From: Elusimicrobiaceae bacterium
Lineage (GTDB): Bacteria; Elusimicrobiota; Elusimicrobia; Elusimicrobiales; Elusimicrobiaceae
Reading direction: 5' to 3'
DNA length: 64,000 bases
Assembly: GCA_045605325.1 (NCBI GenBank)
Contig: JAZUPU010000032.1
Coordinates: 1,506 to 65,505, forward strand
In this document: piece by piece, positions 6,381 to 52,125 of the stretch
Numbering within the stretch: the stretch's first letter is position 1
Layout of the letters: each line of letters begins with the position of its first letter
Notes under the pieces: generated by a model
Seen by the model: the letters and a program-made list of their open reading frames with translations, nothing else
What the model was told of the DNA's origin: nothing
The model's database searches: none
Translations under genes and position numbers: made by a program

Positions 6381-6535
6381 TAGAGGAATGTTCTACAATT
6401 TTCATTCTTTACCGTCTAATTTTTTGGTAAATTTTGATTTTTCTACTCCTAAAGTACTGAGTTCACTCCCGTTTTTCTTGGTACTTGTCGTCACAGTAAA
6501 AATTAAAATTTACTTCAAATTATCAAAGGTTATGG
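6381..6535 (-). repeat. MITE/REP-like palindromic repeat, family 1 (copy a, inverted relative to copies b/c)
   Basis: Termini aaattttgattttt ... aaaaattaaaattt and inner arms gtactttaggag / cttggtac. Aligns along its length with 28189-28345, 51963-52125 and 49985-50115. Confidence 0.7.
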
Positions 6536-9711: not shown

Positions 9712-9971
9712 TGCTATAATAAAGTATAAGTTGTAAAAGGAGTTTTAAAATTATGTAGGGTTTAAAACCCTAAAAAATTTAATCTGTTTTTGGCCCGCAA
9801 TGGCGGGATGTTAATAGAAATATTAACGCATATAGATGCCAAGAACAGTCGTTAAGGCACATAATGGTCTGGTTGATCCCCTTACTGTTATGTGCTGAAT
9901 GTTTGTCAGTAGACAAACTACGGCTGTTTTATTTAGGATCATCTATATGCCCAAAATAATCAGCCGTTTTT
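9712..9971 (+). promoter_or_regulatory. Extended -10 promoter plus a roughly 245-nt structured leader RNA with antiterminator/terminator switch (copy A)
   Basis: TGcTATAAT at 9712-9720. Helices 9758-9770, 9794-9807 and 9810-9827 (GAAA loop). P1 is 9828-9840 / 9936-9950 and the junction helix is 9844-9852 / 9920-9928. Hairpins at 9857-9895 and 9901-9918. Terminator cggctg (9921-9926) / cagccg (9961-9966) + T5. Covaries with copy B. Confidence 0.55.
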
Positions 9972-10006
9972 ATATGTAAAAATTTAGGAGGTTTAACATA
10001 ATACCT

Positions 10007-10618: not shown

Positions 10619-10812
10619 TCAAGTATTTTGAGGAAATTTTGATTTTTACTACGACAACATCGGAGAACGAAGCCGAAGCGTTAAAAAACGTCTTCGCATC
10701 GCGCAGTAGATTTAATGGAATTTTCAATTTTTACTTTGACGACGAATACCCAGAAGTATAGGAGCGTAGCGATTTTCGGTATTCTAGGAAATGAAAAATT
10801 GAAAATTACTTA
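10619..10812 (+). repeat. Compound family-1 repeat (two nested or adjacent units)
   Basis: Starts with the canonical terminus caagtattttgaggaaattttgatttttac. An internal module gaagcg..cgcttc/cgcgcagtagatttaatgg is also seen at 28090-28130. A second unit runs ttttcaatttttactttgacgacgaatacc...ggtattctagg...aaaaattgaaaatt. Confidence 0.65.
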
Positions 10813-21435: not shown

Positions 21436-24414
21436 TTATTTTAGAATATCACCAAGCATTTTAATGTAAGCACTCGGTTTTTTGATATCTTCAAAATTTA
21501 TAGTACCGCAACGAATCATCATAACTTCTAACATATGGGATAAAATGTCATAGAAATTATTTCTGATAGGTTCTTTGCATTCCAATAAAGAAGGACCTAA
21601 AATAATGGCGCCTTTTAAACCTTTTAAATCACAAATATTGGCTATTTTAAAAGCAGATGAAATGATATGCTCCGTTGAATAAGCAGATTTTAAAGCATAA
21701 TTAAAACCGCCTCTTATACCAAGTTCTTTTGCCGCTTCCTGAGCAGCAAAAGCAACCCAACGGAATTTATCTATTTGGGAAGTCGGGAAGAAGAAACCAA
21801 AACTCCCCCAAGTATTTTCTTTATTTTTTTCCAAAGATATTACATCAGAAAAATCTTTCTTTACTATTTCACTTTCCTGATTTTCCCCTTCTACCGCTGT
21901 CATTACTTTTAATAAATCTTCGTAAGACATTTTCTTTATTCCGCTACTTTCAATACGGCGTGATAAAACTTTTACCCTCTTAACATTTGTTGCAACTTCA
22001 CCCAAAGATTTGTTTTGTCCTGTAAAAAATTCCTGAATTTGATTATCCGTTAAATTTAAAACAGAATTGGTTACTAGTTTATTTGTTAATTTCGCAAAAT
22101 TATCTTTACCGGGAACTTTAACTTCGGCAATAGTTCCGATAGAAAATTTAAAATTAACTAATTCCTCAAACCTTTTTAAACTTTCAGGAGGATATTTTGA
22201 AGATAAAATAATCTGTTTTTTATTCTGTAAAAAATCATTTAAAACTTTTGATATATATTCCCTGTTATGTTCATTTACGGCTGTTAAATGTACATCATCA
22301 ACAATTAATACTTCAGCATTATTAAAGAATTCATCTAATTTATCTTTTTTACCTCTTTCTAATAAATATTGTACACCCCTTGAAAGGCGCACACCGTTTG
22401 TAAATAAAATTTTAGCTTGAGGTATTTTTTTAGAAATTTCATAACCCATAGCATTTAAAAAATGTGTTTTACCGGTACCGCTTTCCCCTTGCAAAAGGAA
22501 AGGATTATTTGTTGTTCCTAAATTATCTAATGTTACCATTGCCATAGCATGCGCAAAACGAATAGAAGAAATATCCATATTAGCAAAAGTATAAGTAGGA
22601 ATTAAGGGCATTTCTATCGGATAATTTTTATATTTTGTTTCTTTTGAAGGCGTAGCGACATGTAATGTATGGTCTATCTTCTCTTTATTTCCAGTAATGT
22701 TTTGATGATTATTTTGTATTTTATTAAACATATTTTGTTTTGGTGTTTGCATATTTTCCCCTTCTCCTTTTTCAACAATTTTCGCGGTTGTTCCTGCCAT
22801 CTCTTTTTTAGGTTCAACCTTTGAAAATTCCTGTTTATTTTTTGAAATTGCTCTTGACTCTTTTATACTCACTATACGAAATGATTTTTCTTTGTTCTCC
22901 TGTTTATTTTCTTTTTTTACTGCTTCTACTGCAGATACTTTTTTATTATCCGATACTGCTTCTATCCTATTTTGATTATGGAAATTATTTTCTGTTTTTG
23001 GTTTAACATTTTTAGTTTCTGTTTTAATATTGTTTTGTGTAAAAATTTGTGCCGGGGAAGTTAATTCTTCTATCCCTTGACTATTAGCAAAATTTTCCTT
23101 TTTAGGCAAAATATTACTTTGTAACGAATCAGAAGAAATGTCTTCTCTAGATAACGGTTTTTGTTCTTTTGGTAATACTGTATTTTCCAATTTATCCAAG
23201 GGGCTTGTTCCTTTGACTCTATCAGAATTTATTTTTTTATTTTTTTCTTCAGGTTGATCTGCATAAAATTCACATACGGTTTCAGCATTAAAAATATCAT
23301 CAACTTGCAATTTAGCTGTTAAAGAATTGCTTGTTAAATCTTCTTTCATTTGTTTTTTTGTTTCTTCACTTAATTCCTCAGGGTTCAAAAGACCTTTTTT
23401 AACAATAATACCGCTTCCTAAATTTTGGAAAGGGTTCTCTTTTTCTTGTACAGGTTGTTCTGCGGTATTTTGTTTTTTAGGTTCTTCAGATGTTAAATCT
23501 TGAATAAAATTTTCTTTAACTTTACTTTCTTGTCTAAGTAAAGATGAAAAATTTTGTTGTTCGTTTTGTTTTAATTCTTCCGGTTTTGCTTTTTGTTCAA
23601 TAGGTTTATTGTGTTTTATTACTGATTTTATTTTACCGAACATATTTTTCAAGAAGCCCTTATTTTCAGGTTCTACTGTAATAGAAACATCTTGTATCTC
23701 TTCAGGGGAAAAAGAAACAACAGTTTTATTTTCTTCTACGGATGTCTTGTGTTCTTGTGTAGGAATTGCAGGGGTAATTGATTCCTGTTTTAAATTTTCT
23801 TCTTGTTCCGGCTTTTTTATCTCTGAAAACGTTTGAGCTATTTTTAGAGGTTCTCCTTCAAGTGATATTTTTGTTTCACCGTCAGAAATTTTATTGTTAA
23901 CAAATAAGTTATCAAAAGAAGTATCTTCACTTTCTTTATCTATATTAAAACCTGTTTTTGCAAGAGATAACGCCGGAATACTAACCCCACTTTTTTGTTG
24001 TTCCTCGGAAAGATTAGTTTGCTCATTAACGGTATTAACGAATATATCTTCCGGGGTATAATCTTTTTTAAAATTTGTAAAGGTTTTGTTTATTTGTGGG
24101 ATATTAGTTAAGGGATTTTCCTCAACTGTAAAAGTAGATGTTTTTAAAGCATTACCGAAAGTTTGTGTTTCACCTTGAAAAGTAGATGAAAGTGTCTCTA
24201 ATCTATACCTAACTTTTTCAAGCATAGAATTGTCAGTGATACCTGATAATTCAAAAACATAATCAAAACCTTTAACTTTTACATTTATTAATTTACAAAA
24301 ACCGGAAAGACCTTGTTTTACATCTTCACAACCCTGCAGATCTGCTTTTAATAAAAGTAAAAAAATAGAATTTTTTGTTAAAGTATTTTCTCTTATCTCA
24401 TAATTATCTATCAT
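21436..24414 (-). CDS. Large protein with a DnaA-domain-III-like AAA+ module, a long E/K/Q/N-rich disordered region and an unknown C-terminal domain
   Basis: 992 aa. Residues of roughly 620-800 align with the window's own DnaA: NPFLLQGESGTGKTHFLNAMG vs [28 protein letters not shown] vs LLIDDIQ, KKQIILSSKYPP vs QKQIVLTCDKTP. No DnaA domain IV motif was seen. Confidence 0.6.
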   Translation of the reverse strand: MIDNYEIRENTLTKNSIFLLLLKADLQGCEDVKQGLSGFCKLINVKVKGFDYVFELSGITDNSMLEKVRYRLETLSSTFQGETQTFGNALKTSTFTVEENPLTNIPQINKTFTNFKKDYTPEDIFVNTVNEQTNLSEEQQKSGVSIPALSLAKTGFNIDKESEDTSFDNLFVNNKISDGETKISLEGEPLKIAQTFSEIKKPEQEENLKQESITPAIPTQEHKTSVEENKTVVSFSPEEIQDVSITVEPENKGFLKNMFGKIKSVIKHNKPIEQKAKPEELKQNEQQNFSSLLRQESKVKENFIQDLTSEEPKKQNTAEQPVQEKENPFQNLGSGIIVKKGLLNPEELSEETKKQMKEDLTSNSLTAKLQVDDIFNAETVCEFYADQPEEKNKKINSDRVKGTSPLDKLENTVLPKEQKPLSREDISSDSLQSNILPKKENFANSQGIEELTSPAQIFTQNNIKTETKNVKPKTENNFHNQNRIEAVSDNKKVSAVEAVKKENKQENKEKSFRIVSIKESRAISKNKQEFSKVEPKKEMAGTTAKIVEKGEGENMQTPKQNMFNKIQNNHQNITGNKEKIDHTLHVATPSKETKYKNYPIEMPLIPTYTFANMDISSIRFAHAMAMVTLDNLGTTNNPFLLQGESGTGKTHFLNAMGYEISKKIPQAKILFTNGVRLSRGVQYLLERGKKDKLDEFFNNAEVLIVDDVHLTAVNEHNREYISKVLNDFLQNKKQIILSSKYPPESLKRFEELVNFKFSIGTIAEVKVPGKDNFAKLTNKLVTNSVLNLTDNQIQEFFTGQNKSLGEVATNVKRVKVLSRRIESSGIKKMSYEDLLKVMTAVEGENQESEIVKKDFSDVISLEKNKENTWGSFGFFFPTSQIDKFRWVAFAAQEAAKELGIRGGFNYALKSAYSTEHIISSAFKIANICDLKGLKGAIILGPSLLECKEPIRNNFYDILSHMLEVMMIRCGTINFEDIKKPSAYIKMLGDILK

Positions 24415-27335: not shown

Positions 27336-27352
27336 AATATTTAATTTGTTAT

Positions 27353-27388
27353 AAAAACAACCCCCAAGGAAACCGGGGGTTGTTTTTT
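27353..27388. terminator. Bidirectional rho-independent terminator between convergent genes
   Basis: Stem acaaccccc / gggggttgt with an A-run on the left and T6 on the right. Confidence 0.7.
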
Positions 27389-27409
27389 ATAACAAAATTT
27401 ATTTGGCTA

Positions 27410-27931
27410 TTAAAACGGACAAGAATAATAATTATTTACATTATTCGCATATAAAAAATTACATTTTAACAAATCAGAACAAAAACCATTTTGTGCATAT
27501 TCATAACACAGCAACTTGTTTTCCGGTAAATTGATACTAGCTTTATTTCTAATATAAAAACCTGAAAATTTATATTTACCTGTTTTACGAAGGGAAAAGA
27601 TACTACCGGATATAAGAACGACATTTTTTTCATTTGACAAGCAATCTGTTTTGTTCCAAAAAATAGAAAAATCTTCGCAACCATTCCTTTCATAACCACT
27701 TAAATTAATATCTAAATCGTCAAAATTTGTTGCAAATGTTCCGTTTGCTAAATAATATCTGTGTTGCGCTTCGTATAATGCTTTAACATTTATTAATAAT
27801 TCGCTTGCTTCTGATTTTTCTTTTGCGCGGCGATACTGCGGTAAAGCAATTGCTGCTAAAATGCCGATAATTAAAATAACTACTAATAATTCAAGCAATG
27901 TGAAACCTTGACTACTGTTTTTTATTTTCAT
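27410..27931 (-). CDS. Prepilin-type N-terminal cleavage/methylation-domain protein (type IV pilin/pseudopilin-like), paralog 1
   Basis: Motif GFTLLELLVVILIIGILAAIALPQY. 173 aa. The first roughly 85 aa are almost identical to the gene at 47894-48433. Conserved Cys pattern in the C-terminus. Confidence 0.85.
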   Translation of the reverse strand: MKIKNSSQGFTLLELLVVILIIGILAAIALPQYRRAKEKSEASELLINVKALYEAQHRYYLANGTFATNFDDLDINLSGYERNGCEDFSIFWNKTDCLSNEKNVVLISGSIFSLRKTGKYKFSGFYIRNKASINLPENKLLCYEYAQNGFCSDLLKCNFLYANNVNNYYSCPF

Positions 27932-27980
27932 TTTGTTTTCTCCAATTTAATTTATACAGCATTTTAGCGCTATATATTAT

Positions 27981-28007
27981 ATTTTAGAAAAAAAAAAAAA
28001 TAGTCAA
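27981..28007 (-). promoter_or_regulatory. Sigma70-like promoter of pilin paralog 1 with a T13 tract in the spacer (15-bp spacer)
   Basis: The minus strand reads TTGACT-a-T13-c-TAAAAT. It is homologous to the promoter at 47815-47843, which has T15. Confidence 0.55.
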
Positions 28008-28188
28008 GTGGGCTTTTTTACCGTCGTAAAAAAATGTATGTTAAAATAATTTTTTATTAATTTTTGCTTTGATATTAGTTTTTAAAACCGAAGCGAATGG
28101 AAATGTTTTCGCGCTGCGCAGCAAATTTAAGATGATTTTTTATTTTTATCTGACGACAAAAAAACAAGGCCAAACAGAATTCGTAAAA

Positions 28189-28345
28189 CCGGCAAGTATT
28201 TTTGAGGAAATTTCAATTTTTTCTTTGACGACGAGTACTAAGAAGAACGGGAGCGGAGCGACTCTCGGTACTCTAGGAAAAGAAAAATTAAAATTTACCA
28301 AAAAGACTTTGACGGCAAAGAATATTTACTGCAGATTTCCTATTT
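28189..28345 (+). repeat. MITE/REP-like palindromic repeat, family 1 (copy b)
   Basis: ccggcaagtatttttgaggaaatttcaatttttt...gacgacgagtactaagaagaacgggag...ctcggtactctagg...gaaaaattaaaatttaccaaaaagactttgacggcaaagaat. Confidence 0.7.
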
Positions 28346-30180: not shown

Positions 30181-31067
30181 TTTAATTTCTCCTGATTTTT
30201 TAAAGTCAAATAACCCATTAAGCGGTAAATTAATTTTGCGGCATTAAATTCGCTTATAGGATTGTCTTTCATCGGTGCTGTTTCAACAACATCTGCTGCA
30301 ACGATTTTTTTGTTTTTAACAACTTCCCTAAACAAATTCATAGCATCATACCACATAAAACCGCCCGGTTGAGGGGTGCCTGTTCCTGGGATTACAGACG
30401 GATCAAAACCGTCAACATCAATTGTCATATAAACGGTGTCAGTTAAATTTGCTAAAACATCTTTGATTAATTTTTTTTGGTCCAAATTTTCGTGCATCAA
30501 AAATGTTTTTACATTACCGGAATTAACATTATCTTTTTCTTCTAAACCGATAGAACGAATTCCGACTTGTACGACGCGCACTTTGCGGGAAGCAGGATAT
30601 AAAGCACAAGCGTGGGAGCGTTCATCACCGTAATATTCTTTCCTTAAATCGGCGTGGGCATCAAAGTGTAAGACAGAAAGTTCTTTGCCGTATTTTTCAA
30701 TATAGGGGTTAATTAAAGCTTGGGAAATTGAGTGTTCCCCCCCTAAATAAAAAGGAAATTGTTTATAAGTATTAATATATTCTTTGACGAAATTTTCAAT
30801 GCGGTTAAAAACTTCTTCTTCTGTACCTTCGCAATTTATTGCATCAAAAGTTGCAATACCTTGGCGGAAAGTTTCGGTTTTTGTTTCTTCGTCAAAAAAT
30901 TCCACTTGGCTTGACGCCTCTAAGATAGCGGCAGGGCCTTGTTTTGTTCCGCCGAAATAGGACACTGTCCTTTCATACGGAACGGGAATAACGGCGAATT
31001 TCGCCGTATTAATATCGCAAAATTCGCCGTCTAGTGCTAAAAAGTTGTTACTGCTTGGTTTTAACAT
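30177..31067 (-). CDS. speB: Agmatinase (arginase/ureohydrolase family)
   Basis: Motifs HFDAHADLR, GGEHSIS and TIDVDGFDP. Adjacent to pdaD. Confidence 0.85.
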   Translation of the reverse strand: MLKPSSNNFLALDGEFCDINTAKFAVIPVPYERTVSYFGGTKQGPAAILEASSQVEFFDEETKTETFRQGIATFDAINCEGTEEEVFNRIENFVKEYINTYKQFPFYLGGEHSISQALINPYIEKYGKELSVLHFDAHADLRKEYYGDERSHACALYPASRKVRVVQVGIRSIGLEEKDNVNSGNVKTFLMHENLDQKKLIKDVLANLTDTVYMTIDVDGFDPSVIPGTGTPQPGGFMWYDAMNLFREVVKNKKIVAADVVETAPMKDNPISEFNAAKLIYRLMGYLTLKNQEKLK

Positions 31068-33870: not shown

Positions 33871-34167
33871 CTCAAATTTTGATTTTTGTTTAAATTCAAA
33901 GCAGTTTATCGTTTTTTAAAAACAAATTAAAATTTGGGCAGTTTTTATTTGATTTTGATTTTTTACGACGGAGAATTTAAAAAAGTCCTTATTGTCGCCA
34001 CCCGTATGCCTTGTCATACGGGCGGGAGATGCTGAGCAAGGGCAGTTCTTGCGAAGCAGAGGGGGGATCAATAAGGAAATAAAATAGGAAAACCTTATCC
34101 CCCATCCGTCAAGCAAATAAAAAGCCATTTGCTTGCCACCCTCCGCCCGTCCACGACGGGTGAGGGC
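33871..34167. repeat. Mosaic of short family-1-like palindrome and family-2 GC-rich hairpin modules
   Basis: aaattttgatttttgttt ... aaacaaattaaaattt; cacccgtatg..catacgggcg; ggggggat..ccttatccccc. The canonical family-2 unit then occupies 34097-34167. Confidence 0.55.
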
Positions 34168-34203: not shown

Positions 34204-34475
34204 TGATATACTTTAAAAAACGAAAGGAGTGTTTTTATTTTTTAATGTAAGCCGATAACGGCTTAATACAATTTAATCTGTTTTTGGCCCGTAACGACGG
34301 AGAGTTAATAGAAATATTAACGCATATAGAAACCAAAAACAGTCGTATGGGCACAAAGCAAGAGGATTAATTACCCTCTTACTTTGTGCTTAATGTTTGT
34401 TATCGCAAGATAATAAACTACGACTGTTATGTTTTTGGTCTTTCTATATGCCCGAAACACAATAGTCGTTTTTTT
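34204..34475 (+). promoter_or_regulatory. Extended -10 promoter plus a roughly 260-nt structured leader RNA with antiterminator/terminator switch (copy B)
   Basis: TGaTATACT at 34204-34212. Same helix order as copy A, with compensatory substitutions. Terminator stem cgactgttatgtttttgg / ccgaaacacaatagtcg followed by T7 (ends 34475). Confidence 0.55.
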
Positions 34476-34494
34476 ATTTAGAAAAGGAGAAATT

Positions 34495-35122: not shown

Positions 35123-36001
35123 TTAAACCAAAGTTTTTAACTTATCGCCCAATACATTTAATTCTTCATAAGAATTAAAGTGTAAGGTTAAAGTCCCTTT
35201 ACCTTTGCCGTTTTCCTTAACTTCAACTTTGGTACCGAGCGCCTCTTGCAAGGACTGTTCAAAAGCAACTGTATTGGGGTCTTTGCTTTGTTTTGGGGCA
35301 GAGGTTTTGCCTTCCAAAATAGTTCTTGCGGCATTTTCTGCCTGGCGGACAGACATTTTAGAACTGATTATTTTTTTGAACAAAACTGCCCTTTTCCCCT
35401 CGTCACCAACCATTAAAAGTGCGCGACCGTGACCCTCTGTAATAGTTCCGTCTTGCAAGGCATTTTGTATTTCTTGGGAAAGGTTTAACAACCTTAAAGA
35501 ATTTGATACCGCCGCTTTTGATTTGCCGCAATATTCCGCAAGTTCCACTTGGGAAACCAAGAATTTTTGCATCAAATTTTTGTAACCGAGGGCGGTTTCA
35601 ATGGGGTTTAAGTCCTCCCTTTGAATATTTTCAATTAAAGCAAGGGCGCAAAGTTGTTTGTCGTCAAGTTTGGTATGTACAATACAATCAATTTCTTTAA
35701 AGCCCGCCATTTCGCTTGCTCTGAAGCGGCGTTCCCCTACTACTAATTCATATTTATCAAGACCGGCATCATAAACAACCACTACCGGCTGGGTTAAACC
35801 GTGTTGCTTAATTGACTGTGCCAAGTCCTTTAAACTGTCTTCATTAAATGTCTTTCTGGGTTGATATCTGTTAGGAATGATTTTGTCAATAGAAATCTTT
35901 TGAATATTCCTTTTACCTTCCCCACCGTTATTAATTTCCTGCTCCATTTCAAAAGAGGAGCCAAGCAAAGCATCTAAACCTTTTCCTAAAGCGTTTCTCA
36001 T
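35123..36001 (-). CDS. parB: Chromosome partitioning protein ParB (Spo0J)
   Basis: Motifs IPNRYQPRKTF and LVVGERRFRAS, plus an HTH region. Confidence 0.9.
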   Translation of the reverse strand: MRNALGKGLDALLGSSFEMEQEINNGGEGKRNIQKISIDKIIPNRYQPRKTFNEDSLKDLAQSIKQHGLTQPVVVVYDAGLDKYELVVGERRFRASEMAGFKEIDCIVHTKLDDKQLCALALIENIQREDLNPIETALGYKNLMQKFLVSQVELAEYCGKSKAAVSNSLRLLNLSQEIQNALQDGTITEGHGRALLMVGDEGKRAVLFKKIISSKMSVRQAENAARTILEGKTSAPKQSKDPNTVAFEQSLQEALGTKVEVKENGKGKGTLTLHFNSYEELNVLGDKLKTLV

Positions 36002-36004
36002 AAA

Positions 36005-36838
36005 TTAACCTCCGAAATCAAAATCATTATTCTTATTGACAGAGGTTTTAAAAGATTCATAATCCTCTGCTTTTGCACCGCGGCGAACTAAAAATTCTAT
36101 TGCTAAATCAAGATATGCCCTGGCACCGCGGCAAGTGGGCTCATATTCAAATATGCTTTGTCCAAAGCTCGGTGCTTCCGCTAAACGAATATTACGCGGT
36201 ATAGGGTTTTGGTATACTTTGGAACCGAAGAATTTACTAACATCTTCCTTAACTTGTTTGGAAAGATTCATACGGGTATCAAACATTGTCAAAATACCGC
36301 CGTCCACCTTTAAATTGGGGCTTAAAAACTGTTTGACTTTGCCCGTTGTATTGATAAAATTAGCCAAACCTTCCATAGCATAATATTCGCATTGTATAGG
36401 AGTTATTACGCTGTCTGCCGCAACTAAAGCGTTAATCGTAAGCAAACTAAGAGAGGGGGGGCAATCAATAATAATAAAGTTATACATCCTTTTAATAGCA
36501 TCAAGGGCTTGTTTTAAGAATTTTTCCCTTTGCGGAGTATTGACAAGCTCTACTTCCGCACCGGCAAGATTTTTATTTGCCGGCAAAATATCTAATAATT
36601 CATTAGATGTTTGATGTACAACTTCTTTAAATGTAGCGGTTTTGGTTAGAAAATTATAAACGGATTTTTCATCTTCCTTTAAATTAACTCCTAGACCGGA
36701 ACTTGCATTGCTCTGAGGGTCAAAATCCACTAAAAGGACTTCTTGCCCGAGGTAAGCTAAGGCATAAGCCAAGTTTACAGAGGTAGTAGTTTTTCCCACA
36801 CCGCCTTTTTGGTTTGCTACACAGACAATTTCACTCAT
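36005..36838 (-). CDS. parA: Chromosome partitioning ATPase ParA (Soj)
   Basis: Deviant Walker A NQKGGVGKTTTSVNLA. 277 aa. Confidence 0.9.
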   Translation of the reverse strand: MSEIVCVANQKGGVGKTTTSVNLAYALAYLGQEVLLVDFDPQSNASSGLGVNLKEDEKSVYNFLTKTATFKEVVHQTSNELLDILPANKNLAGAEVELVNTPQREKFLKQALDAIKRMYNFIIIDCPPSLSLLTINALVAADSVITPIQCEYYAMEGLANFINTTGKVKQFLSPNLKVDGGILTMFDTRMNLSKQVKEDVSKFFGSKVYQNPIPRNIRLAEAPSFGQSIFEYEPTCRGARAYLDLAIEFLVRRGAKAEDYESFKTSVNKNNDFDFGG

Positions 36839-36947: not shown

Positions 36948-37952
36948 TTATTTAATAATTCTAAATCTGTTTAAAGGCCAATGTAAGAGCCATGCCTTAC
37001 CTTTAATATTTTCTTTAGGAACAGGTCCCCAAAAGCGGGAATCGCAAGAAAAATCCCTATTATCGCCCATAGCAAAATATTGCCCTTCTGGCACAATTAC
37101 AGGACCAAAACTATCTCTTAAAGAAATACCGAAAAATTTCTCTAATTTACGATCTTCCCATAACTTTTGATATTCTTGTTCAGTCAAAGGATTTTCAATA
37201 TCTATCTTATCGTGTTCGGCAAAAATAGCATATTCTTGGGGGGGGAGTTCTTTATCATTTATATATATTGTCTGATTCTTTACTTCAACTTTTTCACCGG
37301 GCAAAGCAATAACTCTTTTAACAAAATCTCTACCATACTGTGGTTCGCCGCAATTTGATTGTTTTCTATCTTTTGCCGGAAATCTGAAAATAATAATATC
37401 ACCGCGGTTTACGTCGTGAAAATTAACAAAATTTTCCTTTACAAAAGGCAAGCGCATACCGTAATATGCTTTGTTTACAAAGAGATTATCGCCTTCAAGT
37501 AAAGTGTTCCTCATTGAAGCAGACGGTATTCTAAATGCCTGCAAGAAAAAGAACATAACTATTGATGCAAAAAAAGCGGCAAAATATATTGTTTGCGCCC
37601 AGTCCAAATTGAAGGCAATAATTTTATCTTTTGCCTGTTTATCTGCTTTTTTTGCCTTTATGTAGTTAAAATAAATATAACCTAAAGTAATTAGTATAAT
37701 TAAAGAAAATGTGCCTTTTGAAAGCCCAAAAGTTGCACCGTTTGACATCATAAAATTTAAAATATAGAAAACCAAAATGCCGGCAATTAATGCAAAAGAT
37801 GAATTCCACAAAGCAAATTTGGAATTATTTTCAAAACAATTTTTTTTGATAAAATACTTGGATATTTTATCAAAAGCAAATGCGACGACGGCAGTTATAA
37901 ATAAATGCTGTTCCATATAAATATTATAACATTTATTACAATAATTATGCAC
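36948..37952 (-). CDS. lepB: Signal peptidase I with a multi-TM N-terminal extension
   Basis: Motifs IPSASMRNTL (catalytic Ser), GDNLFVNK and GDNRDFSCDSRFWG. The start codon is uncertain (M1 or M13). Confidence 0.85.
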   Translation of the reverse strand: MHNYCNKCYNIYMEQHLFITAVVAFAFDKISKYFIKKNCFENNSKFALWNSSFALIAGILVFYILNFMMSNGATFGLSKGTFSLIILITLGYIYFNYIKAKKADKQAKDKIIAFNLDWAQTIYFAAFFASIVMFFFLQAFRIPSASMRNTLLEGDNLFVNKAYYGMRLPFVKENFVNFHDVNRGDIIIFRFPAKDRKQSNCGEPQYGRDFVKRVIALPGEKVEVKNQTIYINDKELPPQEYAIFAEHDKIDIENPLTEQEYQKLWEDRKLEKFFGISLRDSFGPVIVPEGQYFAMGDNRDFSCDSRFWGPVPKENIKGKAWLLHWPLNRFRIIK

Positions 37953-38054: not shown

Positions 38055-39422
38055 GTGCGGAAAGTGGAAAACAACGATATAAACGAAATTTGGGCTAAAT
38101 TACTGGAAAAGTTAGAAATAACTTTAGGTAAAGACACTTGCGATATGTGGCTTAAGCCCATGAAAATTGCGGAATTTAATGAAGGTGTTTTTAAACTTGA
38201 AGTTCCTAATAATGCTTGGCTTAAAACAATTAAAGACCGTTATGAAACTCCTATTTTACACGCTTTAACAGAAATTACAAATTTTCCTTGCACCGTTGAT
38301 TATATTATTCAAAAACAAGAAGAACCGCAGGTTTTTAAAGCACCTCCGATAGTTGTTCATCAAAATTACGGCAGGCAAACTTCTAGGGAAGAAAGTAAAC
38401 TTGATCCTCATTATACTTTTGAGGGTTTTATTGAAGGTCCTTCAAACCGATTTGCTTATAAAGCGTCTGAGGCAGTAGTAAAAAAAATCGGTAACCGTGC
38501 AAATAACCCTTTTGTAATTTTCAGTGCACCGGGGCTTGGTAAAACTCATCTTTTGCACGCTATCGGTAATGAACTTTTAAAAAATAACCCTTATGCAAAA
38601 GTTTTATATATGTCGGGAGAAGATTTTTTTACTCAATGTATAGACCATATGGCAAAAAAATCAACCACACCTTTCCATAAACAATATGAAAATATTGATT
38701 GTTTACTTATTGATGATATACAATTTTTAGTTGGTAAAAACAGATCTGAAGAAGAATTTTTTTATACCTTTAATTCCTTATTTAATAATCAAAAACAAAT
38801 TGTTTTAACTTGTGATAAAACACCAAACCAACTTGAATTCAGTGAGCGTTTATCTTCCCGCCTTTTAAGTGGAATTTCAGCCGAAATTAAACGCCCGGAT
38901 TTGGAAACAAGGATTGCAATTTTACGTCATAAAAGAGATTTAAATAATTATGATATTTCAGATGATGTTTTATCTTTTATAGCGCAAGGTGTACAGGCAA
39001 ATATTAGGGAACTTGAAGGGTGTTTATATCGTCTTACAGCTTTTGCAAGTATACACGGTGTAACAGCAACCGTTAATATAGCCAAAGAAGTTCTTGCTGA
39101 TATTATAAATTTAGATCAACAAAAATATAATATAAGTATTAATAAAATAAAACAAGTTGTTTGTAAACATTTTAAAGTCAATTTAGAGGACTTAAATTCT
39201 AAAAAGAAAAATAATTCTATTGCTTGGCCCAGACAAATTGCTATGTACCTTGCAACGGAATTAACATCTTTATCTTTACCTGAAATCGGGAGGGAATTCA
39301 ATAGGGACCATACCACAATTATTCACGCTAAAGAAAAGGTAAAAGAAGAAATTAAAAATAATACCTTTTTTATCCCTGTTATTAACTTGATAACAGAGGA
39401 AATAAAAGCTGGGGATAATTAA
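38055..39422 (+). CDS. dnaA: Chromosomal replication initiator DnaA
   Basis: 455 aa. Motifs GLGKTHLLHAIG, LLIDDIQFL, a sensor/box VII region and the domain IV motif DHTTIIHA. The start is GTG at 38055 or GTG at 38064. Confidence 0.95.
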   Translation: MRKVENNDINEIWAKLLEKLEITLGKDTCDMWLKPMKIAEFNEGVFKLEVPNNAWLKTIKDRYETPILHALTEITNFPCTVDYIIQKQEEPQVFKAPPIVVHQNYGRQTSREESKLDPHYTFEGFIEGPSNRFAYKASEAVVKKIGNRANNPFVIFSAPGLGKTHLLHAIGNELLKNNPYAKVLYMSGEDFFTQCIDHMAKKSTTPFHKQYENIDCLLIDDIQFLVGKNRSEEEFFYTFNSLFNNQKQIVLTCDKTPNQLEFSERLSSRLLSGISAEIKRPDLETRIAILRHKRDLNNYDISDDVLSFIAQGVQANIRELEGCLYRLTAFASIHGVTATVNIAKEVLADIINLDQQKYNISINKIKQVVCKHFKVNLEDLNSKKKNNSIAWPRQIAMYLATELTSLSLPEIGREFNRDHTTIIHAKEKVKEEIKNNTFFIPVINLITEEIKAGDN

Positions 39423-47747: not shown

Positions 47748-47814
47748 TTAACATTTTATTTAACAACCAAAAATTCCCTGATATAAAGTCAATTTTACGA
47801 CAATAAAATTTCGC

Positions 47815-47843
47815 TTGACTATTTTTTTTTTTTTTTCTAAAAT
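47815..47843 (+). promoter_or_regulatory. Sigma70-like promoter of pilin paralog 2 with a T15 tract in the spacer (17-bp spacer)
   Basis: TTGACT (47815-47820)-a-T15 (47822-47836)-c-TAAAAT (47838-47843). Confidence 0.6.
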
Positions 47844-47893
47844 ATATATGTAGCGAAATTAAAAACACTGTATAAATTAATTTGGGGACATTT

Positions 47894-48433
47894 ATGAAAG
47901 GAATAAAGAAAGGTAACAAAGGTTTTACATTACTTGAATTATTAGTAGTTATTTTAATTATCGGGATTTTAGCTGCAATTGCCTTACCGCAATATAGGCG
48001 CGCAAAAGAAAAATCAGAAGCTAGTGAATTATTAATAAACGTTAAAGCATTACACGAAGCGCAACAAAGATATTATTTAGCAAACGGAACATTTGCAACA
48101 AATTTTGATGATTTAGATATTAATTTAAGTGGTTATGAAAGGGGTGGTTGCGAAGATTTTGAGACATTTCACAATAAAAATGATTGTCTTTCAAATAATA
48201 AAAACATAATTTTTATTCAGAACGATGGTGCAAATTTAATTTCTCTACGAAAAACAGGGAAATATCAAAAGTCAGGATTTTCATTTAGGGAAATTGTTAC
48301 TGATGCCCGTCCGGAAAACAAATTACTTTGTTATGAATATAATATGAGTGGTTTTTGTTCCGAGTTATTAAAGTGCGATTCAATAGTATATGTGCCTAAT
48401 AATATAAATGGTTTTTACTCTTGTAACCTTTAA
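47894..48433 (+). CDS. Prepilin-type N-terminal methylation-domain protein (pilin/pseudopilin-like), paralog 2
   Basis: Sequence MKGIKKGNKGFTLLELLVVILIIGILAAIALPQYRRAKEKSEASELL. The ATG at 47894 is preferred over the upstream non-ATG start of the ORF track. Confidence 0.85.
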   Translation: MKGIKKGNKGFTLLELLVVILIIGILAAIALPQYRRAKEKSEASELLINVKALHEAQQRYYLANGTFATNFDDLDINLSGYERGGCEDFETFHNKNDCLSNNKNIIFIQNDGANLISLRKTGKYQKSGFSFREIVTDARPENKLLCYEYNMSGFCSELLKCDSIVYVPNNINGFYSCNL

Positions 48434-49984: not shown

Positions 49985-50115
49985 TTGTGCTGTCTGCGTC
50001 TTTTTAATAAATTTTGATTTTTTAGCTCCTAAAGTACCGAGAGTCGCTTTTCTCCCGTTCTTCTTGGTACTTGTCGTCGTAGTAAAAATCAAAATTTCCT
50101 CAAAATACTTGCCGG
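49985..50115 (-). repeat. MITE/REP-like palindromic repeat, family 1 (copy d, inverted)
   Basis: The reverse complement reads ccggcaagtattttgaggaaattttgatttttactacgacgacaagtaccaagaagaacgggag...ctcggtactttaggagctaaaaaatcaaaattt. Confidence 0.7.
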
Positions 50116-50200
50116 TTGTTACTTATGGTTTGTCTTTATTGACAGACAAAAACTTTTTTAATATAATTTTTCGGTAGCTATTTTTTAAAAGGGGTTATTT

Positions 50201-51962: not shown

Positions 51963-52125
51963 CCGGCAAATATTTTTGAGGAAATTTTGATTTTCTCTTT
52001 GACGACGAGTACCAAGAAGAACGTGGAGCGAAGCGACATCTCGGTACTATAGGAAAAGAAAAATCAAAATTTACCAAAAAGAATTAGCCGGCAATAAACA
52101 GTAATTGCAAATTTCCAATTTCTTA
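51963..52125 (+). repeat. MITE/REP-like palindromic repeat, family 1 (copy c)
   Basis: ccggcaaatatttttgaggaaattttgattttctctttgacgacgagtaccaagaagaacg...ctcggtactatagg...gaaaaatcaaaatttaccaaaaagaattagccggcaataaac. Confidence 0.7.

What the first reader, a model, noticed from the sequence alone, without database searches (positions are those of the whole stretch)
27981..28007. The same promoter on pilin paralog 1 has T13, giving a 15-bp spacer (predicted OFF or low state)
The minus strand reads TTGACT - a T13 c - TAAAAT. A 15-bp spacer is strongly suboptimal for sigma70-type promoters. The alternative downstream TATAAT would give 20 bp, which is also poor. Homology with the 47.8 kb copy continues about 35 nt upstream of the -35 (ttttacgac..aaaa...cttgacta) and through the 5' UTR.

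The two variable-C-terminus pilin paralogs therefore appear to be wired to independently switchable copies of one promoter.
Basis: partly seen in the sequence, partly recalled or inferred. Interest (0 to 1): 0.65.

Follow-up and report, generated by a model that had tools for sequence, protein, structure and literature searches.

The report
Slippery poly-T promoter on pilin gene
Two related pilin (surface-fibre) genes of an uncultured rumen Elusimicrobiaceae bacterium each carry a copy of one promoter whose spacer is a long run of T (13 versus 15), a layout that probably lets copying slips dial each gene up or down; the mechanism is well known from pathogens but I found no report of it in this phylum.

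Summary
The minus strand at 28007..27981 reads TTGACT-a-T13-c-TAAAAT (15-bp spacer), 49 nt upstream of a 173-aa type IV pilin-like gene. The paralog at 47815..47843 has the same module with T15 (17-bp spacer).

These are the only A/T runs of 9 or more in the 64-kb window; a first-order Markov model expects about 34.

Relatives in rumen and gut Elusimicrobia carry the same layout (-35, homopolymer, -10) upstream of pilin-like genes. I found 53 distinct T-tract promoters (T8-T18) and a poly-A version. Between near-identical strains, three of the four internal indels in about 21 kb of pairwise alignment fall inside these tracts.

Best reading: a slippage-prone spacer that sets promoter strength separately for each paralog, as in the Mycoplasma hyorhinis vlp genes. 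T13 is the shortest spacer seen in its subgroup, so a weak state is plausible.

Not shown: variation within one population, any transcription, or that 15 bp means OFF. No raw reads or RNA data exist for this strain.

Verdict: new member of a known kind.

In passing, the two pilin genes are inverted repeats placed about symmetrically around the replication origin, and some relatives have that segment inverted.

The parts
28002..28007 (-). -35 hexamer TTGACT of the pilin-1 promoter
   Evidence: CTTGAC is invariant in six related promoter copies, and TTGAC directly precedes the tract in 33 of the 53 distinct pilin promoters tabulated in relatives.
27988..28000 (-). T13 homopolymer filling the promoter spacer (a-T13-c, 15 bp)
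   Evidence: It is one of only two A/T runs of 9 or more in the window. The orthologous promoter in the closest relative found, L189, has T15 and a 16-bp spacer.
27981..27986 (-). -10 hexamer TAAAAT; an overlapping TATAAT starts 5 nt further downstream
   Evidence: Five of the six related copies read c-TAAAAT; L164 has lost the c.
28014..28034 (-). AT-rich palindrome TTTTTTTACGACGGTAAAAAA just upstream of the -35; this is the upstream limit of the shared promoter module and may be an UP-like element or an operator
   Evidence: The function is inferred only.
27932..27980 (-). conserved leader with the Shine-Dalgarno sequence GGAG
27410..27931 (-). pilin paralog 1: 173 aa, prepilin leader ending ...SQG|FTLLELL, six conserved Cys
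   Evidence: Pfam N_methyl E=3.7e-9. TIGR02532 is above its cut-off. The AlphaFold model has pLDDT 91.5, with a 52-residue N-terminal helix plus a beta head. The best PDB match is gonococcal pilin 1ay2.
27345..27396 (.). GC-rich hairpin downstream of pilin 1, probably a bidirectional terminator
   Evidence: pairs I2 and I5.
47815..47843 (+). paralogous promoter TTGACT-a-T15-c-TAAAAT (17-bp spacer); T15 lies at 47822-47836
47894..48433 (+). pilin paralog 2: 179 aa, 72% identical to paralog 1

Best explanation
The T13 run is a slippage-prone simple-sequence repeat that makes up almost the whole spacer of a sigma-70-type promoter (TTGACT ... TAAAAT) driving a type IV pilin-like gene. Gain or loss of T during replication changes the distance and the rotational phase between the -35 and -10 hexamers, and so changes promoter strength. 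The paralog at 47.8 kb has its own copy of the module, so each gene can drift between stronger and weaker states on its own. This gives cell-to-cell mixtures of pilin variants, as with the Mycoplasma hyorhinis vlp genes. In this assembly copy 1 (15 bp) is predicted to be the weaker promoter and copy 2 (17 bp) the stronger. Shown: the anatomy, the exceptional nature of the tracts, the conservation of the layout across the lineage, and tract-length differences between near-identical strains. Inferred: the hexamer assignment, the slippage mechanism, the effect on transcription, and which lengths are strong or weak.
For: (1) Anatomy.
(2) A/T runs of 9-12 nt are absent from the window (about 33 expected), yet T13 and T15 are kept exactly between the two hexamers of two paralogous promoters.
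(3) Across Elusimicrobia loci there are 53 distinct promoters of the form -35, T8-T18, -10 upstream of pilin-motif ORFs. For the 33 with a TTGAC -35, spacers range 12-24 with a mode of 16. Tract lengths upstream of pilin ORFs are bimodal, 2-7 or 9-17. 34 of 95 pilin-motif ORFs have an A or T run of 9 or more upstream, including a poly-A version, TTGACAAAyC-A11/12-..ATAATA.
(4) Near-identical strains: L001/L002, 10.9 kb with 23 mismatches, the only indel is 1 T in the tract. L163/L164, the only internal indel is 1 T in the tract. L176/L179, 2.9 kb with 1 mismatch, the only indel is 6 T in a tract. Tracts make up about 0.5% of the aligned length.
(5) One relative has four copies of the module with T15, T9, T15 and T16 in otherwise near-identical flanks.
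(6) Among the six aligned c-TAAAAT-type relatives the spacers are 15 (this copy), 16 (three loci) and 17 (two loci), so this copy is the extreme.
(7) The tract lengths exceed the poly-A/T cut-off of 10 or more used for phase-variable loci (PMC6321876). Poly-T tracts of 13-19 at H. pylori sabA vary within cultures (PMC2715451).
(8) Eleven contigs from nine or more samples end in or at these tracts.
Against: No read-level data exist for this strain, so heterogeneity within a population is not shown. No transcription data exist. Several near-identical contig sets keep the same tract: L163=L165, L166=L167=L168, L186=L187=L188 and L189=L190=L191. Homopolymer lengths in metagenome assemblies can be off by one. 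The T15-versus-T9 difference coincides with a nearby substitution that matches the neighbouring promoter copy, so gene conversion or an assembly chimera could explain it rather than slippage. Some relatives have nominal spacers of 19-24 bp, which means either OFF states or a wrong -35 assignment there. Promoter rules for Elusimicrobiota are not established, and my spacer histogram for ordinary promoters was too noisy to confirm a 17-bp optimum.
Confidence: 0.6

Rival explanations
1. The tract is a fixed structural promoter element. A rigid poly(dA).poly(dT) spacer, or an AT-rich recognition feature, is what matters, and its length drifts nearly neutrally. Both paralogs would then be transcribed constitutively or under ordinary regulation, with T13 and T15 making little difference.
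For: Across relatives the commonest spacer is 16, and the poly-A class is almost uniformly A11. Several near-identical strains share one tract length. Most of the distant class has a TG just before the -10 (T-tract-GA-TAAATT), an extended -10 that depends less on the -35. A conserved AT-rich palindrome upstream could carry the regulation.
Against: The window's own class has c-TAAAAT with no TG, so it should depend on the -35. The genome is otherwise purged of A/T runs of 9 or more, which implies such runs are costly and mutable. Indels between close strains concentrate in the tracts. Paralogous copies in one genome range from T9 to T16.
Confidence: 0.25
2. The T13/T15 difference is an assembly or sequencing error at a long homopolymer and has no biological meaning.
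For: Homopolymers of 13-16 nt are error-prone. Many contigs end at these tracts. I could not inspect reads for this contig.
Against: Long ORFs across the window are intact, which argues against systematic homopolymer errors. Independent assemblies of the same strains reproduce identical lengths. Differences of 6 nt and a range of T9-T18 across loci are beyond typical error.
Confidence: 0.08
3. The main switch is recombination, not slippage. The promoter plus the conserved 5' half of the gene is a portable cassette, and homologous exchange or inversion between the inverted pilin loci re-pairs promoters with different pilin 3' halves. Tract length would be secondary.
For: The two loci form a 315-nt, 86% inverted repeat 19,975 nt apart. 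The segment between them holds dnaA, parAB and the GC-skew minimum. Relatives occur in both arrangements. Rubredoxin->pilin-><-FolD side with GDPD->pilin-><-amylase is seen in the window, L176/L001, L182, L163 and L192. Rubredoxin->pilin-><-amylase is seen in L166, L186 and L189. Identical pilins sit behind different upstream flanks, with homology starting at the promoter (L189 versus L190, L163 versus L164).
Against: The two arrangements were seen only in different strains or species, not within one population. No recombinase gene or short flanking inverted repeats lie at the promoters. This does not explain why the spacer is a homopolymer.
Confidence: 0.15
4. The T run is the U-tail of an intrinsic terminator for the upstream rubredoxin operon.
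For: A run of T in an intergenic region, on the same strand as the upstream genes.
Against: No GC-rich hairpin abuts the tract in either window copy. Across 45 related tracts only 3 have such a hairpin, against 1.1 expected by chance. CTTGAC is conserved in sequence, which terminator stems are not.
Confidence: 0.02

Closest known systems
Mycoplasma hyorhinis vlp genes (poly-A tract in the promoter of each vlp paralog; Citti and Wise 1995, as summarised in PMC10502178)
   Same: A family of paralogous surface-protein genes. Each has its own copy of one promoter with an A/T homopolymer, and each copy varies on its own, allowing combinatorial expression. Placement of the vlp tract between the -35 and -10 is from my own knowledge; the cited review says only 'in the promoter region'.
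   Different: The cargo here is a type IV pilin-like protein, not a lipoprotein. The organism is a diderm gut Elusimicrobiaceae. Switching and its effect on transcription are not demonstrated here.
Neisseria meningitidis porA and opc (poly-G or poly-C in the promoter spacer) and Haemophilus influenzae hifA/hifB (TA repeats in the spacer; van Ham 1993, cited in PMC11868660)
   Same: A simple-sequence repeat inside the promoter spacer. Expression is graded with spacer length. The H. influenzae case also concerns pilus genes. Details are from my own knowledge except the citation given.
   Different: G/C or dinucleotide repeats rather than poly-T. These are single loci rather than a lineage-wide promoter module.
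Helicobacter pylori sabA promoter poly-T tract (PMC2715451)
   Same: A poly-T tract of 13-19 nt at an adhesin promoter, with length heterogeneity shown within cultures.
   Different: From my own knowledge, the sabA tract lies beside or upstream of the -35 and acts as a rheostat on upstream contacts. Here the tract is the spacer itself.
Mycoplasma mycoides Vmm (TA repeats in the promoter spacer; Persson 2002, as summarised in PMC10502178)
   Same: A repeat within the promoter spacer that controls transcription of a variable surface protein.
   Different: A dinucleotide repeat at a single gene.

Membership tests
Transcriptional phase variation by a simple-sequence repeat in the promoter spacer | A repeat tract lies between recognisable -35 and -10 hexamers of the controlled gene | tested here: met
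   TTGACT-a-T13-c-TAAAAT lies 49 nt upstream of the ATG. The hexamers are assigned by consensus and conservation, not by transcript mapping.
Transcriptional phase variation by a simple-sequence repeat in the promoter spacer | The tract is long enough to slip (poly-A/T of 10 or more, per PMC6321876) | tested here: met
   T13 and T15.
Transcriptional phase variation by a simple-sequence repeat in the promoter spacer | Tract length varies at high frequency and reversibly within a clonal population | tested here: inconclusive
   Variation was seen only between near-identical strains from different samples and between paralogous copies. No raw reads were available.
Transcriptional phase variation by a simple-sequence repeat in the promoter spacer | Transcript level tracks tract length | not testable with these tools
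   The only candidate RNA run holds contigs of a strain about 93% identical, and its library type is unknown.
Transcriptional phase variation by a simple-sequence repeat in the promoter spacer | The controlled gene is a surface or contingency determinant, often in a paralogous family | tested here: met
   Pilin-like paralogs with divergent C-terminal halves.
Type IV pilin / pseudopilin | Class III signal peptide with G|F-x-x-x-E and a hydrophobic N-terminal helix | tested here: met
   ...SQG|FTLLELLVVILIIGILAAIALPQY. Pfam PF07963 scores 36.2 bits against a cut-off of 21.2. TIGR02532 scores 33 against 16.3.
Type IV pilin / pseudopilin | Lollipop fold: a long alpha-1 helix packed on a beta-sheet head, with disulfide-bonded C-terminal region | tested here: met
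   The model has pLDDT 91.5, helix 12-63 and seven strands. The top PDB matches are Neisseria pilins, but TM-scores are only 0.44-0.48. Six Cys are invariant or nearly so in the family. The head domain is divergent.
Type IV pilin / pseudopilin | Prepilin peptidase and assembly machinery present, and the protein is assembled into a filament | not tested
   None was found among the window ORFs I scanned with Pfam; about 1-5.8 kb and 49.9-64 kb were not scanned. The rest of the genome was not available.
Invertible-promoter switches (fimS, Bacteroides type) | Short inverted repeats flank a promoter segment, with a nearby site-specific recombinase | tested here: not met
   No flanking inverted repeats were found around either promoter. 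No recombinase was found among the neighbouring genes scanned.
H. pylori sabA-type T-tract rheostat | The tract lies upstream of or beside the -35, outside the spacer | tested here: not met
   The tract lies between the hexamers.

The most novel reading that the evidence does not exclude
Gut Elusimicrobiaceae may run a two-layer pilin variation system. Layer one is a lineage-wide portable promoter module whose spacer is a slippery A or T homopolymer and sets expression of each pilin paralog separately. Layer two is homologous recombination between pilin loci placed as inverted repeats roughly symmetrically about the replication origin, which inverts the origin segment and re-pairs promoters with pilin 3' cassettes without upsetting replichore balance or gene orientation.
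Probability: 0.2. Interest if true: 0.75.

Novelty: new member of a known kind. Interest (0 to 1): 0.55.

Why it matters
Repeat-driven phase variation is known mainly from a few pathogens such as Neisseria, Haemophilus, Helicobacter, Campylobacter and Mycoplasma. If it is confirmed here, the same bet-hedging device would be built into the pilin genes of a whole lineage of uncultured gut commensals in a phylum with almost no genetics. About a third of the pilin-like genes I sampled in relatives carry such a tract. That would help explain why Elusimicrobia carry so many pilin paralogs. It would point to pili as targets of phage, protist or host selection in the rumen. It would also warn that consensus genome assemblies hide expression states. 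The module is short and easy to test in reporter assays.

Tried and rejected
1. Read-level heterogeneity. They returned only Logan contigs that hold at most 0.20 of the query words. Laying them on the window showed related strains and paralogs, no usable coverage of the tracts and no RNA evidence.

2. A spacer-length histogram for TTGACN-x-TANWAT sites in 632 kb of related DNA, meant to check for a 17-bp optimum. It was noisy (peaks at 14, 17-19 and 22) and inflated by redundant loci, so I did not use it.

3. Terminator reading of the T run. Rejected.

4. Invertible-promoter reading. No local inverted repeats.

5. Known RNA families. None in the window at gathering thresholds. Nothing credible at the 34.3-kb structured element.

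6. The broad locus scans mostly recovered generic pilin N-termini. They were useful for the lineage-wide survey but not for close relatives, which came from exact-protein look-ups.

7. I tried to find the second junction of the inverted arrangement through P0031. It turned out to be a different locus.

8. Literature. Searches of PMC and bioRxiv found no description of homopolymer promoters or phase variation in Elusimicrobia. The E. minutum genome paper was not held.

Full report
**What is there.** The minus strand at 28007..27981 reads TTGACT-a-T13-c-TAAAAT. The ATG of a 173-aa ORF (27931..27410) lies 49 nt further on. A GGAG ribosome-binding site precedes the ORF and a GC-rich hairpin at 27345-27396 follows it.

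The ORF is a type IV pilin-like protein:
- It has the prepilin leader and G|FTLLELL helix. Pfam N_methyl gives E=3.7e-9 and TIGR02532 is above its cut-off.
- A confident model (pLDDT 91.5) shows a 52-residue N-terminal helix on a beta head.
- Neisseria pilins are the best, though modest, structural matches.

The second copy at 47815..47843 (+) is TTGACT-a-T15-c-TAAAAT and drives a 179-aa paralog at 47894..48433. The two proteins are 72% identical overall. Mature residues 9-92 are 93% identical and the C-terminal half is 52% identical.

**More than chance.** The window is 35.5% G+C.
- It has 181, 60 and 11 A/T runs of 6, 7 and 8 nt, and none of 9-12 nt.
- It then has exactly two longer runs, T13 and T15. 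A first-order Markov model of the window expects about 34 runs of 9 or more.
- The sequence is therefore purged of long A/T runs except at these two promoters.
- The full pattern TTGACT-N14-19-TAAAAT occurs four times against 0.32 expected.

**Organism and context.** Homologs and neighbouring genes place the window in rumen or gut Elusimicrobiaceae.

Gene order in the window is as follows:
- On the minus strand: pilin 1, rubredoxin, flavin reductase, desulfoferrodoxin, rubrerythrin, arginase and arginine decarboxylase.
- Then peptidase M3 (+), a third pilin-like gene (+), parB and parA (-) and signal peptidase (-).
- On the plus strand: dnaA at 38055, an unscanned ORF where L001 has dnaN, an ORF matching gyrB by length and synteny, a gyrA-length ORF, three further ORFs and GDPD, then pilin 2.
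- Alpha-amylase follows on the minus strand.

The cumulative GC skew is lowest at 36-38 kb, and DnaA-box-like sites cluster around dnaA. Both pilin genes therefore point away from the replication origin. The midpoint between their start codons (37.9 kb) is at the origin region.

**The same module in relatives.** Exact-protein look-ups recovered contigs with the same gene order.

| Locus | Context | Core promoter | Spacer |
|---|---|---|---|
| L189 | closest flank found, 91% identical over 709 nt upstream | TTGACG-T15-c-TAAAAT | 16 |
| L163, L165, L190, L191 | same module | same as L189 | 16 |
| L164 | the c is lost | T18 read-through | 17 |
| L001 | ortholog of locus 2 | TTGACT-g-T16-cg-TAAAAT | 19 |
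| L002 | ortholog of locus 2 | TTGACT-g-T15-cg-TAAAAT | 18 |
| L166 | related pilin | T14 | 19 |
| L175 | related pilin | T16 | 22 |
| L194 | related pilin | T15 | not tabulated |

The L001 genome also has three tandem pilins at locus 1. Each follows its own terminator and its own copy of the module, with T15, T9 and T15.

An alignment of six close copies shows what is conserved:
- an AT-rich palindrome (TTTTACGACGGTAAAA) just upstream of the -35;
- CTTGAC, the tract, TAAAAT (preceded by c in five of the six copies) and the leader down to GGAG.

All similarity stops upstream of the palindrome. The promoter therefore behaves as a discrete module.

**A lineage-wide pattern.** I surveyed 420 kb of mostly Elusimicrobia loci fetched around pilin-like genes.
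- 30 of the 54 T runs of 9 or more lie within 120 nt upstream of a pilin-motif ORF.
- The longest T run upstream of pilin ORFs is bimodal: 2-7 nt or 9-17 nt.
- Over all loci there are 53 distinct promoters of the form (c)TTGAy..-T8-18-..TAnnnT. The spacer mode is 16 and the range is 12-24.
- A second class uses poly-A: TTGACAAAyC-A11/12-..ATAATA.
- In all, 34 of 95 pilin-motif ORFs carry an A or T run of 9 or more upstream.
- The tract is not a terminator tail. Only 3 of 45 have a GC-rich hairpin abutting it, against 1.1 expected, and neither window copy has one.

**Is the tract mutable?** No raw reads for this strain are served. The runs found hold only related strains, as contigs. The best proxy is pairs of near-identical strains from different samples.

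| Pair | Aligned length and differences | Tract result |
|---|---|---|
| L001 / L002 | 10,918 nt, 23 mismatches | the only indel is 1 T in the tract |
| L163 / L164 | 2,682 nt | the only internal indel is 1 T in the tract, plus c to t beside it |
| L176 / L179 | 2,896 nt, 1 mismatch | the only indel is 6 T in one tract |
| L186 / L188 | 17 mismatches | tract unchanged |
| L189 / L190 | 3 mismatches, one 23-nt indel in the amylase gene | tract unchanged |

Three of the four internal indels thus fall in about 0.5% of the aligned sequence.

Caveats:
- Differences of one base could be assembly noise.
- The 6-nt change comes with a substitution that matches the neighbouring promoter copy, so gene conversion or a chimeric assembly is possible.
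- Strains with 100% identical contigs share the same length.
- Eleven contigs from several studies end in or at a tract. This fits heterogeneity, but it also fits repeats or weak coverage.

**Mechanism proposed.** By analogy with established systems, slipped-strand mispairing changes the spacer length and so the promoter strength, separately in each copy. Those systems are:
- M. hyorhinis vlp, poly-A (PMC10502178);
- M. mycoides Vmm, TA repeats in the spacer (PMC10502178);
- H. influenzae hif (cited in PMC11868660);
- H. pylori sabA, poly-T 13-19 that is heterogeneous within cultures (PMC2715451).

Both tracts exceed the length of 10 or more used to call poly-A/T loci phase-variable (PMC6321876).

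Copy 1, at 15 bp, has the shortest spacer in its subgroup (15; 16 three times; 17 twice) and no TG extension. A weak state is therefore a fair prediction. OFF is not shown, and a graded effect is equally likely.

I give 0.6 to the mutable, strength-setting spacer and 0.25 to a fixed structural spacer whose length drifts neutrally. Assembly artefact gets 0.08 and the terminator reading 0.02. Recombination as the main switch gets 0.15; it is complementary to the spacer reading rather than exclusive, so these figures are separate confidences and sum to more than 1.

**Recombination at the promoters.** This was noticed while checking relatives.
- The two pilin loci form a 315-nt, 86% inverted repeat 19,975 nt apart, and the origin lies between them.
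- Relatives occur in two arrangements.
  - The window type has rubredoxin->pilin-><-FolD side together with GDPD->pilin-><-amylase. It is seen in L176/L001, L182, L163 and L192.
  - The other type has rubredoxin->pilin-><-amylase. It is seen in L166, L186 and L189. It is what an inversion between the two pilin loci would produce.
- L189, the closest relative found, has the arrangement opposite to the window.
- Identical pilin proteins sit behind different upstream flanks, and the homology starts at the promoter. L189 against L190 starts at TTGACG-T15. L163 against L164 starts about 106 nt upstream of the ATG.
- I could not show both orientations within one population.

**Comparison and novelty.** The closest analogue is the vlp system: paralogous surface-protein genes, each with its own copy of a homopolymer-bearing promoter. 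The differences here are:
- the cargo is a type IV pilin-like protein;
- the host lineage is an uncultured gut Elusimicrobiaceae;
- the module is used lineage-wide, with both T and A versions;
- it is possibly coupled to inversions across the origin.

I found no prior description for this phylum. On present evidence this is a new member of a known kind. Interest is moderate (0.55). It would be higher if the two-layer reading holds.

Noticed in passing
window 27410-28007 (-) and 47815-48433 (+); origin region about 37.9-39.5 kb: The two pilin loci are inverted repeats (315 nt, 86%) 19,975 nt apart, and both point away from the replication origin. dnaA is at 38055-39422, parAB at 35123-36838 and the GC-skew minimum at 36-38 kb. 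The midpoint between the two ATGs is 37,912. Relatives exist with the segment in either orientation (L166, L186 and L189 against L176/L001, L163, L182 and L192).
   Followed up: partly
L176 4001-5975 (contig k141_3250); also L177, L179, L181, L190: Relatives have two or three tandem pilin paralogs at the locus where the window has one. Each has its own terminator and promoter copy (T15, T9, T15), so copy number at this locus changes between strains.
   Followed up: partly
window 34310-34480 (+), upstream of the third pilin-like gene (34429/34496-35034); paralog at 9787-9982: A roughly 180-nt element folds into a very stable long-range structure (-71.5 kcal/mol, z = -10) and ends in a short T run before the gene. 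It has no Rfam match. By eye, leaders with shared motifs replace the T-tract promoter upstream of family pilins P0008 (L182) and P0014 (L192). The window's second copy precedes a TPR protein. It could be a cis-regulatory RNA or a palindromic mobile element.
   Followed up: partly
window 28189-28345, 51963-52121, 49998-50122, 6404-6519, 10717-10809: A dispersed intergenic repeat of about 130 nt forms a long imperfect hairpin; 10 of its 36 predicted pairs show compensatory changes. One copy lies between rubredoxin and the pilin-1 promoter. In rumen metagenome contigs this stretch has depths of several hundred to a few thousand (up to about 2800), against roughly 0-15 over the variable part of the adjacent pilin gene and the right-hand flank, so it is high-copy or widespread.
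   Followed up: partly
L004, L005, L009, L024, L028 (upstream of pilin-like genes): A second promoter class in other Elusimicrobia has a poly-A spacer: TTGACAAAyC-A11/12-..ATAATA (nominal 16-bp spacer). It is almost uniformly A11.
   Followed up: partly
window 28014-28034 (-) and 47790-47810 (+): An AT-rich palindrome, TTTTTTTACGACGGTAAAAAA (TTTTACGAC core), lies directly upstream of the -35 in both copies and in relatives. It marks the upstream edge of the shared module and could be an UP-like element or a regulator binding site. The TTTTACGAC core also occurs at 33961 and 52310.
   Followed up: no
whole window: A/T homopolymers of 9-12 nt are completely absent, whereas about 33 are expected from dinucleotide content. 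This suggests genome-wide selection against slippery runs.
   Followed up: yes
window 37238-37245: A G8 run (C8 on the coding strand, encoding Pro-Pro) lies inside the signal peptidase I gene (36948-37952, -). It is the longest G/C run in the window. G7 at 36455-36461 lies in parA, and C7 at 30737-30743 lies in the arginase gene.
   Followed up: partly
L168-L174, L177, L181, L195, L196: Eleven contigs from at least nine samples and several assemblers end inside or immediately beside the promoter T tract. This fits length heterogeneity, repeated promoter copies, or poor read quality at the tract.
   Followed up: no
window 21436-24414 (-): A 992-aa protein has a DnaA-type ATPase domain in its C-terminal third. 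Relatives have a 978-aa protein with the same DnaA and IstB ATPase-domain hits at the syntenic position (L178, L180, L181). It lies about 14 kb from the true dnaA.
   Followed up: no
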